Shown piece after piece: positions 1 to 60,997 of a stretch of 64,000 bases of DNA (positions are counted from its first letter, which is position 1; the number at the start of each line of letters is the position of its first letter). Origin of the DNA: Candidatus Deferrimicrobium sp. Its GTDB lineage: Bacteria; Desulfobacterota; Deferrimicrobia; Deferrimicrobiales; Deferrimicrobiaceae. Where the stretch lies: NCBI RefSeq assembly GCF_036396855.1, contig NZ_DASWKA010000030.1, positions 12,103 to 76,102 on the forward strand, read 5' to 3'. A model generated the notes under the pieces. It worked only from the letters and a program-made list of their open reading frames with translations. It made no database searches and had not been told where the DNA came from. Position numbers and translations under genes: made by a program.

Positions 1-460
1 GGGGGGAGATGATCGTGATCTTTCCCTGGACCCGTTCGTCGAAGATGAAGTTCCTCTTCGTCTGCTCGCTCATGAACTTGATGAGGACCGCCAGATCGAC
101 GTCGGTGAAGTCCATCGACAGGTAGACCGGAGGAGATACCGGGGGCGCCGGAGCCGCTGCGGGAGGCGTCTCGGGAGCGGTCGCGGGCGCCGGAGCCTCC
201 GCGGGGGGCGTCTCGGGAGCGGTCGCTGGCGCCGGAACCTCCGGGGAGAGTGTCTCGGGAGCGGTCGCAGGCGCCGGAGCCTCCGCGGGGGGCGTCTCGG
301 GAGCGGTCGCGGGCGCCGGAGCCTCCGGGGGGAGTGGTTCGGGAGCGGTCGCGGGCGCCGGAGCCTCCGCGGGGGCGACGTTGTCCGAAGGCGCCTCGGC
401 AGCGTATGCGGCGGGCCCGAAGGCGATGAGGCCGGCGATCAGCACGACAGGAATTCGCAT
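1..460 (-). CDS. gspD: Type II secretion secretin GspD, N-terminal part (gene runs off the window start)
   Basis: Absent from the ORF track because no stop lies in the window. ATG at 460-458 is preceded by GGAG. Translation gives MRIPVVLIAGLIAFGPAAYA (signal peptide), then 14-aa Pro/Ala/Thr repeats, then SMDFTDVDLAVLIKFMSEQTKRNFIFDERVQGKITIISP, a secretin N0-type motif. It lies directly downstream of gspC. Confidence 0.75.
   Translation of the reverse strand, partial: MRIPVVLIAGLIAFGPAAYAAEAPSDNVAPAEAPAPATAPEPLPPEAPAPATAPETPPAEAPAPATAPETLSPEVPAPATAPETPPAEAPAPATAPETPPAAAPAPPVSPPVYLSMDFTDVDLAVLIKFMSEQTKRNFIFDERVQGKITIISP
145..378. repeat. 42-bp tandem repeat, about 5.5 copies, in frame inside gspD
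   Basis: Units gcgccggagcctccgcggggggcgtctcgggagcggtcgcgg start at 145, 187, 229, 271, 313 and 355 (last one partial). On the minus strand they encode APAPATAPETPPAE-like units. Confidence 0.9.
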
Positions 461-10389: not shown

Positions 10390-10524
10390 CCCCCGAAGGG
10401 GGTACCCCAGGGAGCGCGTTATATCCGGGAGTGGGGCGGGGGAACCCCGCTCTATGAACGGCAGGTAATATGCGTGGCGGTCCCAGCGGGGTTCGAACCC
10501 GCGTTTTCGCCTGGGAGGGCGCCG
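10390..10524. repeat. Repeat copy A: 85-bp R element plus a 3' fragment of tRNA-Glu
   Basis: 10475-10511 is identical to the 3' 37 nt of the tRNA-Glu gene at 21755-21791, with degenerate similarity to about 10524. 10390-10474 is homologous to 15465-15552. Confidence 0.8.
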
Positions 10525-15464: not shown

Positions 15465-15600
15465 CCCCCGAAGGGGGTACCCCTGGGAGCGCGATATATC
15501 CGGGAGTGGGGCGGGGGGGAACCCCGCTATATAAACGGCAGGCGGTTATTCGTGGCGGTCCCAGCGGGGTTCGAACCCGCGTTTTCGCCGTGAGAGGGCG
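15465..15600. repeat. Repeat copy B: 88-bp R element plus the 3' 48 nt of tRNA-Glu (attL-like)
   Basis: 15553-15600 is identical to 21755-21802 (tRNA-Glu from its 3' end into the anticodon loop). 15465-15552 is homologous to 10390-10474. Confidence 0.85.
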
Positions 15601-21746: not shown

Positions 21747-21754
21747 TGATTTCG

Positions 21755-21830
21755 TGGCGGTCCCAGCGGGGTTCGAACCCGCGTTTTCGCCGTGAGAGGG
21801 CGGCGTCCTGGGCCACTAGACGATGGGACC
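21755..21830 (-). tRNA. tRNA-Glu (anticodon CUC)
   Basis: The 76-nt sequence GGTCCCATCGTCTAGTGGCCCAGGACGCCGCCCTCTCACGGCGAAAACGCGGGTTCGAACCCCGCTGGGACCGCCA closely resembles E. coli tRNA-Glu. The anticodon loop is CUCUCAC and CCA is encoded. Confidence 0.95.
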
Positions 21831-56712: not shown

Positions 56713-57267
56713 ATGCGGAAAGCGGGAATCATCCTGGTAGCGGCTGTGGTCACGGCGATCTTCGCGGGGACCTCCCTCGCGGAAGGGTTGCGGGTGGCCG
56801 TCATCGACATGAACAAGATCCTCAACGACTCCGAGGCGGGCCAGTCGGCGAAGAAGAAGATGGAATCCCGGTACGAGGAGCTGAAAAAAGCGATCGACAG
56901 GACGCAGGAAGAGGCGCGCAAGATCAAGGACGAGATCGACAAGCAGAAGGTGATGCTGGGGAAGGAGAAGCTCAAGGAGAAGGAGGACGCCCTCCAGGCG
57001 AAGATCAACGAACTGCGGCAGATGACCCAGAAGGGGGAGCAGGAGATGCAGGCCCAGCAAGCCGAATTCACCCGCGATGTGTTCAAGGCGGTCGAGAAGC
57101 AGGTCGAGGTCGTCGTGAAGGCCGACAAGCTCGATATCGTCCTCGAGAAGACGGCGGGGGTCATCCATTTCAACCCGTCGATGGACATCTCGCTGCGGGT
57201 CCTTGACCTGGTGAACAAGGCCGGCAAGGAGGCGCCGGAGAAAAAGAGTAGCGGAAGTGGGAAGTGA
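56713..57267 (+). CDS. skp: Periplasmic chaperone Skp (OmpH family)
   Basis: ATG at 56713. It has a signal peptide and a Lys/Glu-rich coiled coil, in the bamA-skp-lpxD context. Confidence 0.85.
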   Translation: MRKAGIILVAAVVTAIFAGTSLAEGLRVAVIDMNKILNDSEAGQSAKKKMESRYEELKKAIDRTQEEARKIKDEIDKQKVMLGKEKLKEKEDALQAKINELRQMTQKGEQEMQAQQAEFTRDVFKAVEKQVEVVVKADKLDIVLEKTAGVIHFNPSMDISLRVLDLVNKAGKEAPEKKSSGSGK

Positions 57268-57429
57268 GGGTCTGTCACGGAATAAAGTGTGCAGATATGG
57301 GCGTTGAGTCGCCCGGCCGGCAAGGCACGAGGAGGGAGAATACCGTGAGTATTCGACAGACGAGCAACGCAGCCCGCCGGGATGAATCGGCGGCCAGATC
57401 GCACAGGTTATTCCGTGACAGGCCCTAAG
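57264..57429 (+). ncRNA. 166-nt structured repeat element, copy 1 (candidate cis-regulatory RNA or hairpin MITE)
   Basis: A 19-bp closing stem joins 57267-57285 with 57408-57426 (one U.G on the + strand). Internal hairpins are GGGCG-N6-CGCCC, GAATAC-CGTGA-GTATTC and CCGCCG-N8-CGGCGG. It is 156/166 identical to 59685-59850. Confidence 0.7.
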
Positions 57430-58909: not shown

Positions 58910-59688
58910 TTCATCCGACCGCCATCATCGATCCGGGGGCGGAGCTCGGGAAAGACGTCTCGGTCGGGTCGTTCGCCGTAATCGGGCCGAAGGTGACGAT
59001 CGGCGACGGGACCACCGTCGGATCGCACGCGGTCATCGAGTCCCACGTCCGCATGGGAAAGGGGAACCGCATCCATTCGTTCGCCTCCGTCGGGGCGATC
59101 CCGCAGGATCTGAAGTTCCGCGGCGAGGAGTCGTGGGTGGAAATGGGGGACGGGAACATCATCCGCGAATTCGCCACCTTGAACCGTGGCACCTCCGGGG
59201 GCGGAGGCGTGACGCGGATCGGGAACAACACGCTGGTGATGGCGTACAGCCATGTCGCCCACGACTGCGTCATCGGGAGCCGCGTCATCATGGCGAACGC
59301 GGCCACTCTCGCCGGCCACGTTACGATCGAGGACGGCGCGATCATCGGCGGGATGACCGGGGTGCACCAGTTCGTCCGGATCGGGGAGCACTGCATCATC
59401 GGAGGGATGTCGGCCGTTTCGCAGGACGTTCCGCCGTACGTCACGGCGGTCGTTTCCCGACCGCAGCGCGGATACGCGCTTTACGGTCTGAACCTCGTAG
59501 GGCTCCGGCGGAACCGCTTCTCCCCGGAGACCGTTGCTGCGCTGAAGCAGGCGTTCAAGATCATCTTCCGCGCGGAGGTTCCCATCAAGGAGGCGCTTGC
59601 GCGGGCCGAGGCGGAGCTCCCGGCGCTGCCCGAGGTCAGGCACCTGATCGCGTTCGTCCGCGAGAGTAAACGCGGCGTTCTGAGGTGA
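58906..59688 (+). CDS. lpxA: UDP-N-acetylglucosamine O-acyltransferase
   Basis: ATG at 58906 (ATGA overlap). It begins MIHPTAIIDP and has hexapeptide repeats. Confidence 0.95.
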   Translation: MIHPTAIIDPGAELGKDVSVGSFAVIGPKVTIGDGTTVGSHAVIESHVRMGKGNRIHSFASVGAIPQDLKFRGEESWVEMGDGNIIREFATLNRGTSGGGGVTRIGNNTLVMAYSHVAHDCVIGSRVIMANAATLAGHVTIEDGAIIGGMTGVHQFVRIGEHCIIGGMSAVSQDVPPYVTAVVSRPQRGYALYGLNLVGLRRNRFSPETVAALKQAFKIIFRAEVPIKEALARAEAELPALPEVRHLIAFVRESKRGVLR

Positions 59689-59850
59689 GGGTCGGTCCAG
59701 GAATAATGTGTGCAGATATGGGCGTTGAGTCGCCCGGCCGGCAAGGCACGAGGAGAGAGAATACCGTGAGTATTCGACCGACGAGCAACGCAGCCCGCCG
59801 GGATGAATCGGCGGCCAGATCGCACAGATTATTCCTGGACCGGCCCTAAG
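59685..59850 (+). ncRNA. 166-nt structured repeat element, copy 2
   Basis: A 19-bp closing stem joins 59688-59706 with 59829-59847. It has the same internal hairpins as copy 1 and ends 1 nt before the lpxB ATG. Confidence 0.7.
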
Positions 59851-59851
59851 G

Positions 59852-60997
59852 ATGCCGAAAACCTTGTTCCTCGCCTGCGGGGAGCCTTCGGGGGAGGCGT
59901 ACGCCGCGCGGGTGGCGCGCGCGTTCCGCGGCCGCTTTCCGGGCGTCCCGATGGAGGGGATCGGAAGCGCGCTTCTCGCGGCGGAAGGGGTGAGGATCCT
60001 GCGGGATTACGGCGACATCTCCGTCATCGGCGTCACGGAAGCGCTGCGGCGCCTTCCGGCGATCCGCGCGGCCCTTTCCGCGGTCACGGCGCGCGTGAGC
60101 CGACCCGACATCGGAGCGGTGCTGCTCGTCGACTTTCCCGACTTCAACTTCCGGGTGGGGAAAACCGCCGCGCGGCGCGGGATCCCCGTGGTCTATTACG
60201 TCCCCCCGCAGGTGTGGGCCTGGCGACCCGGCCGGGCGAAGACCCTCTCCCGGTTCACGAAGGGCGCGGTCGTCCTGTTCCCCTTCGAGGTCGCATTCCT
60301 TCGCGCAAGCGGCGTAAACGCCGTCTTCGCCGGACATCCGATTCTCGACGAGCTCGCCCCGTTCCTCGACGCGCCTCCCGACCCGGACCGGTTCGGGATC
60401 CCCCGGGGGAAGCGGGGGATCGGCCTGCTCCCGGGAAGCCGGTCGGGGGAAGTCGCCGCGCACCTTCCGATCCTGCTCGACGCCGCGCGCCTCCTCCTTC
60501 AACGGTTTCCCGACCTCCACTTCGCCCTTCCCGTGGCGCGTCCGGCGCTGCGTGAGGCGATCGCGCGCGAGGTCGCGGACTCGGGGCTTCCGGTCGCGCT
60601 GGTGGACGAGACGCGGCAACTCCTCTTCCGGGGGCTGGAGGCCGCGATCGCGGTTTCGGGAACCGTCACGCTCGAGCTTGCCCTGCTTGGCGTGCCGGCG
60701 GTCATCGTCTACCGGACCTCCTGGTTGAGCTACCAGGTCGGCCGTCGCCTGGCGAGGGTCGACTGCGTCGGCCTGCCCAACATCGCTTCAGGAGAGAAGT
60801 TCCTGCCGGAGTTGATCCAGGACGACTGCACTCCGCAGCGGATCGCCGTCGCCCTCGGGGAGATCCTGTCCGATCCGGCGCACAGGGAGCGTCTGCGCGC
60901 GATGGGGCTCTCGCTGCGTTCGATCCTCCGCGGCCCGGGTCCCACGGAGGCGGTCGTTTCGATGCTGGGGAGGGAGGCGGCGGAAGGATGGGCGTGA
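59852..60997 (+). CDS. lpxB: Lipid-A-disaccharide synthase
   Basis: 381 aa with GEPSGE and VVYYV.PQVWAWR motifs. Confidence 0.95.
   Translation: MPKTLFLACGEPSGEAYAARVARAFRGRFPGVPMEGIGSALLAAEGVRILRDYGDISVIGVTEALRRLPAIRAALSAVTARVSRPDIGAVLLVDFPDFNFRVGKTAARRGIPVVYYVPPQVWAWRPGRAKTLSRFTKGAVVLFPFEVAFLRASGVNAVFAGHPILDELAPFLDAPPDPDRFGIPRGKRGIGLLPGSRSGEVAAHLPILLDAARLLLQRFPDLHFALPVARPALREAIAREVADSGLPVALVDETRQLLFRGLEAAIAVSGTVTLELALLGVPAVIVYRTSWLSYQVGRRLARVDCVGLPNIASGEKFLPELIQDDCTPQRIAVALGEILSDPAHRERLRAMGLSLRSILRGPGPTEAVVSMLGREAAEGWA

What the first reader, a model, noticed from the sequence alone, without database searches (positions are those of the whole stretch)
59685..59854. Upstream stop codon and downstream start sit in opposite arms of the same long stem: possible long-range translational coupling
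In both copies the element begins with GTGAGGG. Its TGA is the stop codon of the upstream gene (skp 57265-57267; lpxA 59686-59688) and lies at the base of the left arm. The right arm contains the best lpxD start (GTG 57415) in copy 1 and ends 4 nt before the lpxB ATG (59852) in copy 2. The conserved tail GGCCCTAAG provides the only SD-like AAGG. A ribosome terminating on the upstream gene would melt the closing stem and expose the downstream initiation region about 150 nt away. Without upstream translation the start would be sequestered. This would enforce stoichiometric coupling inside an envelope-biogenesis operon. The mechanism is inference; the geometry is read directly from the sequence.
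Basis: inference. Interest (0 to 1): 0.6.

Follow-up and report, generated by a model that had tools for sequence, protein, structure and literature searches.

The report
Mobile hairpin inserted at stop codons
The long stem with a stop codon in one arm and a start in the other is a copy of a small mobile hairpin that inserts at stop codons between operon genes, so the geometry comes from how it inserts; the stem is still conserved in a way suggesting it keeps the downstream gene translatable.

Summary
Both copies (core 57268-57425 and 59689-59846) fold into one roughly 60-bp imperfect rod. The upstream stop codon lies at the left base. The lpxD start lies in the right arm, and the lpxB start lies 4 nt beyond it.

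It is not an lpx-specific regulator. It is a MITE-like repeat of the genus Candidatus Deferrimicrobium, with 52 copies at 38 sites in 24 of 28 genomes. All 27 relatives lack the lpxA|lpxB copy, and about 23 lack the skp|lpxD copy. Empty sites hold one stop triplet and filled sites hold two, so the stop-at-base geometry comes from insertion.

The stem is nonetheless constrained:
- 14 pairs covary.
- The sense RNA folds better in 52 of 52 copies.
- Orthologous copies change about 5-fold more slowly than neighbouring third codon positions.
- In four species the lpxD start arose inside the right arm as GTG, ATG or TTG, with compensating changes in the left arm.
- At 11 of 13 sites with a close start, the element separates the Shine-Dalgarno sequence from its start.

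I infer that rod closure keeps stop, SD and start adjacent. This is untested.

The roughly 90-nt core also occurs in IS5-type MITEs of other phyla. An earlier report of this scan (e1-3597903) had already found the mobile element.

The parts
57265..57267 (+). Left flanking triplet TGA of copy 1, which is the skp stop codon
   Evidence: Empty sites in relatives have a single TAA here.
57268..57425 (+). Copy 1 core (158 nt, GGG...CCC), a rod-like hairpin between skp and lpxD
   Evidence: Fold at -90.5 kcal/mol, z = -8.6. Orthologous copies occur in G001, G012 and G021. Covariation is shown.
57415..57417 (+). lpxD start codon GTG inside the right arm, paired with CAC 57276-57278
   Evidence: The family consensus here is TGG. 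The four skp|lpxD copies have GTG, ATG, TTG and TTG in the lpxD frame, with CAC, CAT, CAG and CAA opposite. The Pfam LpxD domain starts at residue 23.
57257..57259 (+). Former lpxD start GTG (GTG GGA AGT AAG in empty sites). It is now cut off from lpxD and opens a 16-codon frame that runs into the left arm and ends at TGA 57305-57307.
   Evidence: Comparison of empty and filled sites, and the sequence itself.
57426..57428 (+). Right flanking triplet TAA of copy 1
59682..59687 (+). SD-like GAGGTG at the end of lpxA. It was the lpxB Shine-Dalgarno before insertion and is now 164 nt upstream of the ATG in linear sequence.
   Evidence: Duplex energy with the anti-SD is -9.9 kcal/mol. Empty sites read GAGGTAAGGATG or similar.
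59686..59688 (+). Left flanking triplet TGA of copy 2, which is the lpxA stop codon
59689..59846 (+). Copy 2 core (158 nt) between lpxA and lpxB, present in this genome only
   Evidence: Fold at -96.1 kcal/mol, z = -9.4. The site is empty in all 27 relatives.
59847..59849 (+). Right flanking triplet TAA of copy 2
59852..59854 (+). lpxB start ATG, 4 nt after the last paired base of the stem
   Evidence: The same start (ATGCCGAAAACC or GTGGCGAAAACC) is used in all relatives. The Pfam LpxB domain starts at residue 6.

Best explanation
Shown: the two stems are copies of a non-autonomous mobile hairpin (MITE-like). The core is 158 nt with ends GGGYCTGTCC...GGACAGRCCC, and it is dispersed in the genus Candidatus Deferrimicrobium. 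It inserts at a stop-like triplet (TAA, TGA, TAG or TNA) that afterwards stands on both sides of it.

Shown: the left triplet therefore still stops the upstream gene, and the right triplet sits just before whatever followed the stop. In tight operons that is the next gene's start. This is why a stop lies at the left base and a start near the right base.

Inferred: the insertion survives between essential, closely coupled genes only because its RNA closes into a rod right down to the flanking A-U pair. Closure adds only 3 nt to the path between the upstream stop or Shine-Dalgarno sequence and the downstream start. Initiation can then still occur in two ways. One is a split SD-start arrangement, as in phage T4 genes 38 and 25. 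The other is hand-over from ribosomes terminating at the base, which also open the first few base pairs and expose the lpxD start in the right arm.

Inferred: selection for this closure would explain the covarying stem, the bias towards the sense orientation and the slow change in place. On this view the coupling is a tolerated and maintained consequence of a selfish insertion, not a regulator that evolved for the lpx operon.
For: Mobility:
- There are 52 distinct copies at 38 sites in 24 of 28 genus genomes and none in 16 genomes of other families.
- Occupancy differs between species.
- Empty sites have one triplet where filled sites have two.
- Footprint-like remnants and roughly 55-nt internally deleted copies exist.
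- A sister family in a gammaproteobacterial MAG has a CTAG duplication and the same terminal repeats as a resident 1.5-kb DUF772 + DDE_Tnp_1 insertion sequence.

Geometry:
- The stop is exactly at an element end at 27-28 of 38 sites, and 15 nt inside the left arm at 4 more.
- The orientation is about 28 forward to 4 reverse.
- A rough expectation from the availability of TNA-like sites is 7-25% at stop codons.

Constraint:
- 98.7% of cells are paired, 14 pairs have double changes, 0 of 500 shuffles reach this, and slid controls give 1-4.
- The sense RNA averages -92 against -79 kcal/mol for the antisense, and is more stable in 52 of 52 copies.
- In orthologous copies the core is 97.6% identical and the outer stem 95.3%. 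Neighbouring codon position 3 is 87.1% identical.
- The lpxD start was created in the right arm in four species, with compensating changes in the left arm.

Split ribosome binding site:
- At 11 of 13 sites with the start 10 nt or less from the right end, the only good anti-SD match lies left of the element.
- At 15 of 16 sites with a more distant start, the match lies to the right (p = 0.002 and 8e-6).

Precedents:
- Hairpins that bridge SD and AUG in T4 genes 38 and 25 (PMC3014915).
- The RNA-unfolding and reinitiation models of translational coupling (PMC12548453).
Against: - There are no expression data.
- In a library screen cited in PMC12548453, structure directly after the upstream stop codon correlated negatively with coupling.
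- A 158-nt rod is far larger than the T4 hairpins.
- No cognate transposase was found in the 28 Deferrimicrobium assemblies.
- The middle base of the two flanking triplets differs at about 20 of 38 sites, which a clean 3-bp duplication does not predict.
- Covariation in a DNA palindrome could also arise from hairpin-templated repair.
- Some 'orthologous' copies could be independent hits on a hot spot. The rimM|trmD site shows signs of repeated use.
- Four sites carry the element in reverse, one of them also inside an operon junction.
Confidence: 0.55

Rival explanations
1. The stem is a regulatory device that evolved for the envelope operon. The downstream start is sequestered, and only a ribosome terminating on the upstream gene opens it, which enforces stoichiometric expression of skp/lpxD and lpxA/lpxB.
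For: The lpxD start codon is base-paired in the stem, and the pairing is kept by compensating changes in four species. The stop codons lie at the stem base. RNA unfolding is an accepted mechanism of coupling (PMC12548453).
Against: The same element sits at 36 other unrelated junctions, including fabH|fabD, rimM|trmD, accB|accC and upstream of dnaJ. All 27 relatives lack it at lpxA|lpxB and about 23 lack it at skp|lpxD, with the same genes and starts. The lpxB start and most other starts lie outside the stem. The proposed SD in the tail is not usable.
Confidence: 0.1
2. The element is a purely selfish, translationally irrelevant MITE. The hairpin reflects only terminal inverted repeats and a palindromic origin. 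Covariation comes from hairpin-templated DNA repair or gene conversion. Slow change reflects recent or repeated insertion at hot spots. Downstream genes are translated independently.
For: The features are those of a typical MITE. There are signs of hot-spot reuse at rimM|trmD, with a footprint plus a full copy in G041 and a footprint in G022. In two site pairs the elements are less alike than their flanks: L018/L026 and L009/L078.
Against: G.U pairs and fixed bulges persist, and only the sense strand folds best, in 52 of 52 copies. This argues for selection at the RNA level rather than correction of a DNA palindrome. The orientation bias of about 28 to 4 relative to genes is not expected from a DDE transposase. 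The four skp|lpxD copies share derived states, so they are truly orthologous, yet their 90-nt core has 0-3 differences while third codon positions are 10-21% diverged. At 11 sites the SD and start of genes such as trmD and lpxB are separated by the element, so some mechanism must rescue initiation.
Confidence: 0.2
3. The element acts as an RNA processing or stability element, as described for Correia elements and REP sequences. The long duplex is cut by RNase III or blocks exonucleases. This uncouples or stabilises the cistrons on either side, and the downstream gene is translated from a processed 5' end near the right arm.
For: An 18-bp perfect outer stem within a roughly 60-bp rod is a plausible RNase III substrate. 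Correia elements are co-transcribed and bound or cleaved by RNase III (PMC2649163, PMC10969869). The highly conserved internal loops could be protein recognition sites.
Against: Processing alone does not explain why the stop codon sits exactly at the base, or why the base pairs covering the lpxD start are kept.
Confidence: 0.1

Closest known systems
IS5-family-type MITEs (non-autonomous derivatives with short TA-containing duplications)
   Same: Both are small and non-coding, with terminal inverted repeats. Both are flanked by a duplicated T-N-A or TAG triplet. Both are dispersed, with presence/absence differences between relatives and footprints. The sister family in a gammaproteobacterial MAG shares its terminal repeats and CTAG duplication with a resident DUF772 + DDE_Tnp_1 insertion sequence. 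An 824-bp IS5-family element on contig G019:C187 begins GGGTCTGTAC, like the repeat here.
   Different: No partner transposase was found in the Deferrimicrobium assemblies. The interior is more conserved than the ends. The middle base of the two triplets often differs. The element shows a strong preference for stop codons and for the sense orientation.
Chunjie MITE of Geobacter uraniireducens Rf4 (Chen et al. 2008, as summarised in PMC3184786 and PMC10969869)
   Same: It is a MITE in a related phylum that folds into a very stable RNA hairpin. [quoted passage not shown]
   Different: Chunjie is 178-235 bp and A+T-rich, with 21-bp terminal repeats and 9-bp direct repeats. No stop-codon targeting or split ribosome binding site was described in the sources I could read. 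No sequence comparison was made here.
Correia (CREE) elements of Neisseria and ERIC/IRU elements of enterobacteria
   Same: They are imperfect palindromes of about 100-160 nt, co-transcribed with neighbouring genes, that act at the RNA level. Correia elements bind RNase III (PMC2649163).
   Different: There is no sequence relationship, and no Rfam or other match. Correia elements duplicate TA and carry promoters and an IHF site. Neither family is reported to sit exactly on stop codons.
Split translation initiation regions of phage T4 genes 38 and 25 (PMC3014915)
   Same: A stable hairpin between the Shine-Dalgarno sequence and the start codon brings the two to a working distance. Here 11 sites have the SD left of the rod and the start 3-10 nt right of it.
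   Different: The T4 hairpins loop out 16-17 nt, not 158. The T4 cases are experimentally shown, whereas this one is inferred. Here the hairpin is a mobile insertion.
Long-range translational coupling by RNA unfolding (E. coli rpmI-rplT, phage f1 genes VII-IX, MS2; PMC12548453)
   Same: The downstream start (lpxD) is paired with sequence that the ribosome translating or terminating on the upstream gene must open.
   Different: In those systems the pairing partner lies inside the upstream coding sequence and the arrangement is conserved. Here both arms belong to an insertion that most relatives lack.

Membership tests
MITE (non-autonomous DDE-transposon derivative) | Small size with no protein-coding capacity | tested here: met
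   The core is 157-161 nt. The internal 43-codon frame shows changes at second codon positions and stem covariation rather than a codon pattern.
MITE (non-autonomous DDE-transposon derivative) | Terminal inverted repeats | tested here: met
   The ends GGGYCTGTCCNGGAATAA and their complement are found at both ends of every copy.
MITE (non-autonomous DDE-transposon derivative) | Target-site duplication | tested here: inconclusive
   Empty sites hold one stop-like triplet and filled sites hold two. However, the middle base differs between the left and right triplet at about 20 of 38 sites.
MITE (non-autonomous DDE-transposon derivative) | Dispersed copies with presence/absence differences between relatives | tested here: met
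   There are 38 sites. lpxA|lpxB is filled in 1 of 28 genomes and skp|lpxD in 4 of 28. Many empty sites were recovered.
MITE (non-autonomous DDE-transposon derivative) | Autonomous element with the same ends in the same genomes | tested here: not met
   No pair of ends lies 0.5-3 kb apart in the 28 assemblies. No homologue of the gammaproteobacterial transposase was found. The DDE_Tnp_1 hits lack these ends. Only a 55% G+C contig (L224) has a similar first 9 nt. The assemblies are fragmented, so absence is not shown. The sister family in G044 does have such a partner.
Translational coupling by RNA unfolding | The downstream start or RBS is paired in a structure that upstream translation must open | tested here: met
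   The lpxD GTG is paired 9-11 bp from the stem base, which abuts the skp stop. The lpxB ATG is 4 nt outside the stem, so a 30S footprint would overlap the stem. This rests on predicted structure supported by covariation.
Translational coupling by RNA unfolding | Downstream expression depends on translation of the upstream gene | not testable with these tools
   This needs reporter fusions, toeprinting or ribosome profiling.
Translational coupling by RNA unfolding | The arrangement is conserved among relatives with the same operon | tested here: not met
   All 27 relatives lack the lpxA|lpxB copy and about 23 lack the skp|lpxD copy.
Split SD-start region bridged by a hairpin (T4 genes 38 and 25) | SD and start are too far apart in linear sequence, with a stable hairpin between them that restores the spacing | tested here: met
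   At 11 of 13 close-start sites the anti-SD match is only on the left flank. The rod closes to the flanking A-U pair in 51 of 52 copies.
Split SD-start region bridged by a hairpin (T4 genes 38 and 25) | Destabilising the hairpin lowers initiation | not testable with these tools
   An experiment is needed.
Intrinsic transcription terminator | A G+C-rich hairpin followed by a run of U | tested here: not met
   The right flanks read TAAG, TAGG, TGAA and similar, without a T run. Co-oriented genes follow within 3-57 nt.
Any curated RNA family (Rfam 15) | Covariance-model match at or near the gathering score | tested here: not met
   There was no match at E <= 1 over 4 kb. At E <= 10 the only match was a sub-threshold generic hairpin hit to a plant miRNA precursor, at 19 bits against a gathering score of 70.

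The most novel reading that the evidence does not exclude
The nearly invariant interior of about 90 nt (GAGUCGCCCGGCCGGCAAGGC ... GGGAUGAAUCG) has an exposed SD-like CGAGGAGGG in a large internal loop near the tip. It may be a portable RNA module that makes a transposon translationally invisible. On this reading it holds the insertion as a closed rod and perhaps tethers 30S subunits, so that the element can sit between the stop or SD and the start of essential operon genes without polarity. This would explain three observations. The same core is carried by rod-shaped MITEs of 157-160 nt with unrelated terminal repeats and different duplications (TNA or CTAG) in Desulfuromonadota, a gammaproteobacterium, another Pseudomonadota MAG and a Desulfobacteraceae MAG. 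The sense orientation is strongly preferred, since the antisense strand would present an anti-SD mimic. And copies are conserved in place.
Probability: 0.2. Interest if true: 0.8.

Novelty: new variant of a known kind. Interest (0 to 1): 0.55.

Why it matters
Mobile elements normally break operons when they land between coupled genes. This family sits at stop codons between essential genes such as lpxA|lpxB, skp|lpxD, rimM|trmD, accB|accC and fabH|fabD. In about a third of assessed sites it lies between a gene's Shine-Dalgarno sequence and its start codon, yet it persists across species and is conserved in place.

If rod closure rescues initiation, it would be a natural example of hairpin-bridged initiation or reinitiation on a much larger scale than the T4 cases. 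It would also be a ready-made insulator for synthetic operons. A core shared across phyla inside MITEs with different ends raises the question of what cargo a MITE can carry and why.

For annotation, lpxD in this genome starts inside the element, and the element supplies stop codons.

Tried and rejected
- Rfam at permissive thresholds gave nothing meaningful.
- The internal 43-codon ORF (ATG 59718 to TAA 59849) and the apical SD + GUG mini-cistron were rejected. The substitutions are not codon-like. The GUG is GAG or GGG in about 9 copies and is absent in the gammaproteobacterial family.
- An intrinsic terminator was rejected because there is no U run.
- A TA (2-bp) duplication was rejected because sites with TGA...TGA have no TA.
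- An IS200/IS605-type insertion without duplication, with the element carrying its own TGA, fits only half of the sites with empty-site data, so it is left open.
- Integron attC and SECIS were considered from memory and dropped. There is no GTTRRRY core, the stops include TAA and TAG, and relatives end the proteins at the same place.
- A frame relation between the conserved AUG at -44 and downstream starts was rejected. The sites split 13:8:9 over the three frames, which is no signal.
- The search for an autonomous partner in Deferrimicrobium found none.
- Searches for the core found nothing in plasmids or viral contigs, and only one further contig in JGI metagenomes, identical to the Desulfobacteraceae copy.
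- The Chunjie paper itself (PMC2516098) was not held.
Full report
**1. Observation**

The window holds two copies of a 158-nt core, each flanked by stop-like triplets.
- Copy 1: TGA 57265-57267, core 57268-57425, TAA 57426-57428.
- Copy 2: TGA 59686-59688, core 59689-59846, TAA 59847-59849.

The copies are 93% identical. Each folds into a single imperfect rod, at -90.5 and -96.1 kcal/mol, with z-scores of -8.6 and -9.4 against shuffles.

Pfam confirms the gene order skp (OmpH), lpxD, fabZ-like, lpxA, lpxB. The left triplets are the stop codons of skp and lpxA. The lpxB ATG (59852) lies 4 nt after the last paired base. GTG 57415 lies in the right arm in the lpxD frame.

**2. What the element is**

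A third copy lies on another contig of the same genome, after a vapBC-like toxin-antitoxin pair. In a first draw of relatives, the element was found in 19 of 24 other genomes of the same genus and in none of 16 genomes of other families. Record titles identify the genus as Candidatus Deferrimicrobium, formerly placed in 'Deltaproteobacteria'.

From the loci fetched I collected 52 distinct copies at 38 different sites.

The lpx operon was found in all 27 other species of the genus:
- None has the lpxA|lpxB copy.
- Only G001, G012 and G021 share the skp|lpxD copy.
- Relatives with empty sites keep the same lpxB start 3-30 nt after the lpxA stop.
- In those relatives skp and lpxD overlap by 11 nt (GTG GGA AGT AAG over ...GGG AAG TAA).

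**3. How it inserts**

I joined the flanks of 24 sites and searched the genus, which recovered some 40 empty sites. Where the alignment is clean, the empty site holds one stop-like triplet and the filled site holds triplet + element + triplet. Examples:
- gaga TAA gatg becomes gaga TAA[..]TAA gatg.
- actg TAA aggc becomes actg TGA[..]TGA aggc.
- cacc TCA cttc becomes cacc TGA[..]TCA cttc.

Footprint-like remnants occur:
- TAAGGGGGGCCCTAA at rimM|trmD in G022.
- TGAGGGCCCCAA at skp|lpxD in G018.
- TGAGGGACAGGCCCTAA at lpxA|lpxB in G017.

Internally deleted hairpins of about 55 nt also occur.

The base next to the core is invariant: A on the left and T on the right, in 38 of 38 sites. The middle base of the two triplets disagrees at about 20 of 38 sites, which a simple 3-bp duplication does not predict. 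I leave this unexplained.

No partner transposase with these ends was found in the 28 fragmented assemblies. An 824-bp IS5-family element on a 55% G+C contig begins CTA|GGGTCTGTAC and ends CCAGACCC|TAG, which is similar over its first 9 nt.

**4. Geometry across the family**

I assigned coding frames by GC3 periodicity.
- At 23-24 of 38 sites a co-oriented upstream ORF has its stop in the triplet abutting the left end.
- At 4 sites the left triplet has mutated and the ORF runs on to the in-frame TAA 15 nt inside the left arm.
- At 4 sites the element is reversed, and a minus-strand gene's stop abuts the right end.

The orientation relative to genes is about 28 forward to 4 reverse. A rough count of TNA-like triplets in non-coding DNA against stop codons predicts that only 7-25% of random tolerated insertions would fall on stops (crude gene calls). 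Either target choice or selection must therefore add to this.

Many junctions are classical tight operon joints: fabH|fabD, rimM|trmD, accB|accC and upstream of dnaJ. These names are read from the flanking peptide sequences and were not checked by profile.

**5. Evidence that the stem matters**

- On the 52-copy alignment, 98.7% of cells are paired. Fourteen pairs show changes on both sides, no shuffle out of 500 reaches this, and slid controls give 1-4.
- The sense strand folds better than its reverse complement in all 52 copies, at a mean of -92 against -79 kcal/mol. G.U pairs become C.A on the other strand. This points to RNA rather than a DNA cruciform.
- In orthologous copies the 90-nt core is 97.6% identical and the outer stems 95.3%. 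Neighbouring codon position 3 is 87.1% identical, and positions 1+2 are 96.4%.
- The family consensus in the right arm is TGG at -11. The four skp|lpxD copies have GTG (this genome), ATG (G012) and TTG (G001, G021) in the lpxD frame. The left arm reads CAC, CAT, CAG and CAA opposite them. The insertion cut the old lpxD start (GTG 57257) from its gene. A new start then arose inside the stem, and the pairing over it was kept through at least two further changes.

**6. A refinement of the mechanism**

I scored matches to the anti-SD on both flanks.
- At 13 sites the start lies 10 nt or less from the right end. In 11 of these the only good match (-7 kcal/mol or better) lies in the 18 nt left of the element, and none lies to the right.
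- At 16 sites the start is farther away. In 15 of these the match is on the right.

At about a third of assessed sites, including lpxA|lpxB (GAGGUG 59682-59687) and rimM|trmD, the element therefore separates a gene's Shine-Dalgarno sequence from its start codon by 161 nt of linear sequence. If the rod closes to its last A-U pair, the path from SD to start grows by only 3 nt.

This is the arrangement shown experimentally, on a much smaller scale, for phage T4 genes 38 and 25 (PMC3014915). It is compatible with both current models of coupling, RNA unfolding and reinitiation (PMC12548453). That review also cites a screen in which structure just after the upstream stop lowered coupling, which counts against the idea.

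All of this section is inference from sequence.

**7. The conserved core in other phyla**

An exact 21-mer from the interior was scanned over one genome per species. Besides Deferrimicrobium, it occurs in the following:
- A gammaproteobacterial MAG (OY761822.1).
- A Pseudomonadota MAG (JBDRLK01).
- A Desulfobacteraceae MAG (VMSV01, also found as one JGI contig).
- In part, another deltaproteobacterial MAG.

One hit in Caldimonas looks like chance. One hit on a short 'Margulisiibacteriota' contig is identical to the Deferrimicrobium form and is probably mis-binned.

In these genomes the same interior of about 90 nt sits in rods of 157-160 nt with unrelated outer stems. The gammaproteobacterial genome has about 30 copies, flanked by CTAG on both sides. 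Their terminal 16-18 nt equal those of a resident 1.5-kb insertion sequence that encodes a DUF772 + DDE_Tnp_1 transposase. The interior of that insertion sequence lacks the core.

The family is thus a conserved cargo inside MITE shells that differ between hosts. I could not assign a function to the core. It has fixed bulges and a large internal loop with an exposed CGAGGAGGG near the tip.

**8. Comparison and verdict**

The closest known kinds are:
- IS5-type MITEs, for mobility.
- Chunjie of Geobacter uraniireducens, a MITE reported inside an operon without disturbing it (PMC3184786, PMC10969869).
- Correia and ERIC elements, which are co-transcribed palindromes with RNase III interaction (PMC2649163).
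- The T4 split initiation regions and rpmI-rplT-type coupling, for how it may work.

An earlier report of this scan (e1-3597903) had already called the two repeats a mobile hairpin that inserts at stop codons, points with the genes and changes slowly. My independent tests agree with it. They add the empty-site triplets, the start codon created in the stem, the split SD-start pattern and the cross-phylum core.

The geometry is a by-product of insertion and not an lpx-specific regulator. The evidence favours, without proving, the view that the closed stem is what lets the downstream gene still be translated.

Noticed in passing
L173-L203 (gammaproteobacterial MAG OY761822.1, handle G044; IS at G044:C1:4533818-4535329): There is a family of about 30 copies of a 157-nt MITE with CTAG duplications. 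Its terminal repeats match a resident 1.5-kb IS5/IS1182-like insertion sequence (DUF772 + DDE_Tnp_1). It carries the same roughly 90-nt interior as the Deferrimicrobium element.
   Followed up: partly
G000:C122:19572-19600, G000:C30:7048-7065 and G000:C108:16924-16941 (own genome, outside the window): These look like short derivatives of the element. One is a mini-hairpin, TAG GGCCTGTCC CG GGACAGGCCC. The other two are solo arms, GGGCCTGTCCGGGAA(G/A), each followed within a few nt by an ATG, at gene junctions.
   Followed up: partly
L002 (G000:C149:1-2808): The third copy of the element lies in a cluster of toxin-antitoxin-like pairs (AbrB/PIN vapBC-like, HicB-like, HigB/HigA-like, judged by ORF sequence only). 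It does not abut a stop codon; the stop is 22 nt upstream.
   Followed up: no
window 102-414: A tandem array of six 42-nt units at 66-89% identity was seen in the repeat scan.
   Followed up: no
window 10471-10522, 15549-15600, 21751-21802: There are three copies of a tRNA-3'-end-like 52-mer (GGCGGTCCCAGCGGGGTTCGAACCC...), two of them identical. They probably mark attachment-site duplications of integrated islands, which earlier notes of the scan also mention.
   Followed up: no
L083 (G041, rimM|trmD junction) and L091 (G022): The same junction carries a footprint (TAAGGGGGGCCCTAA) in one species. In another species it carries a footprint plus a full copy. This suggests repeated use of one site.
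   Followed up: partly
L128 (JBAZZP010000026.1, labelled Candidatus Margulisiibacteriota): A 3.4-kb contig carries a copy identical in type to the Deferrimicrobium element. It is probably a mis-binned contig.
   Followed up: no
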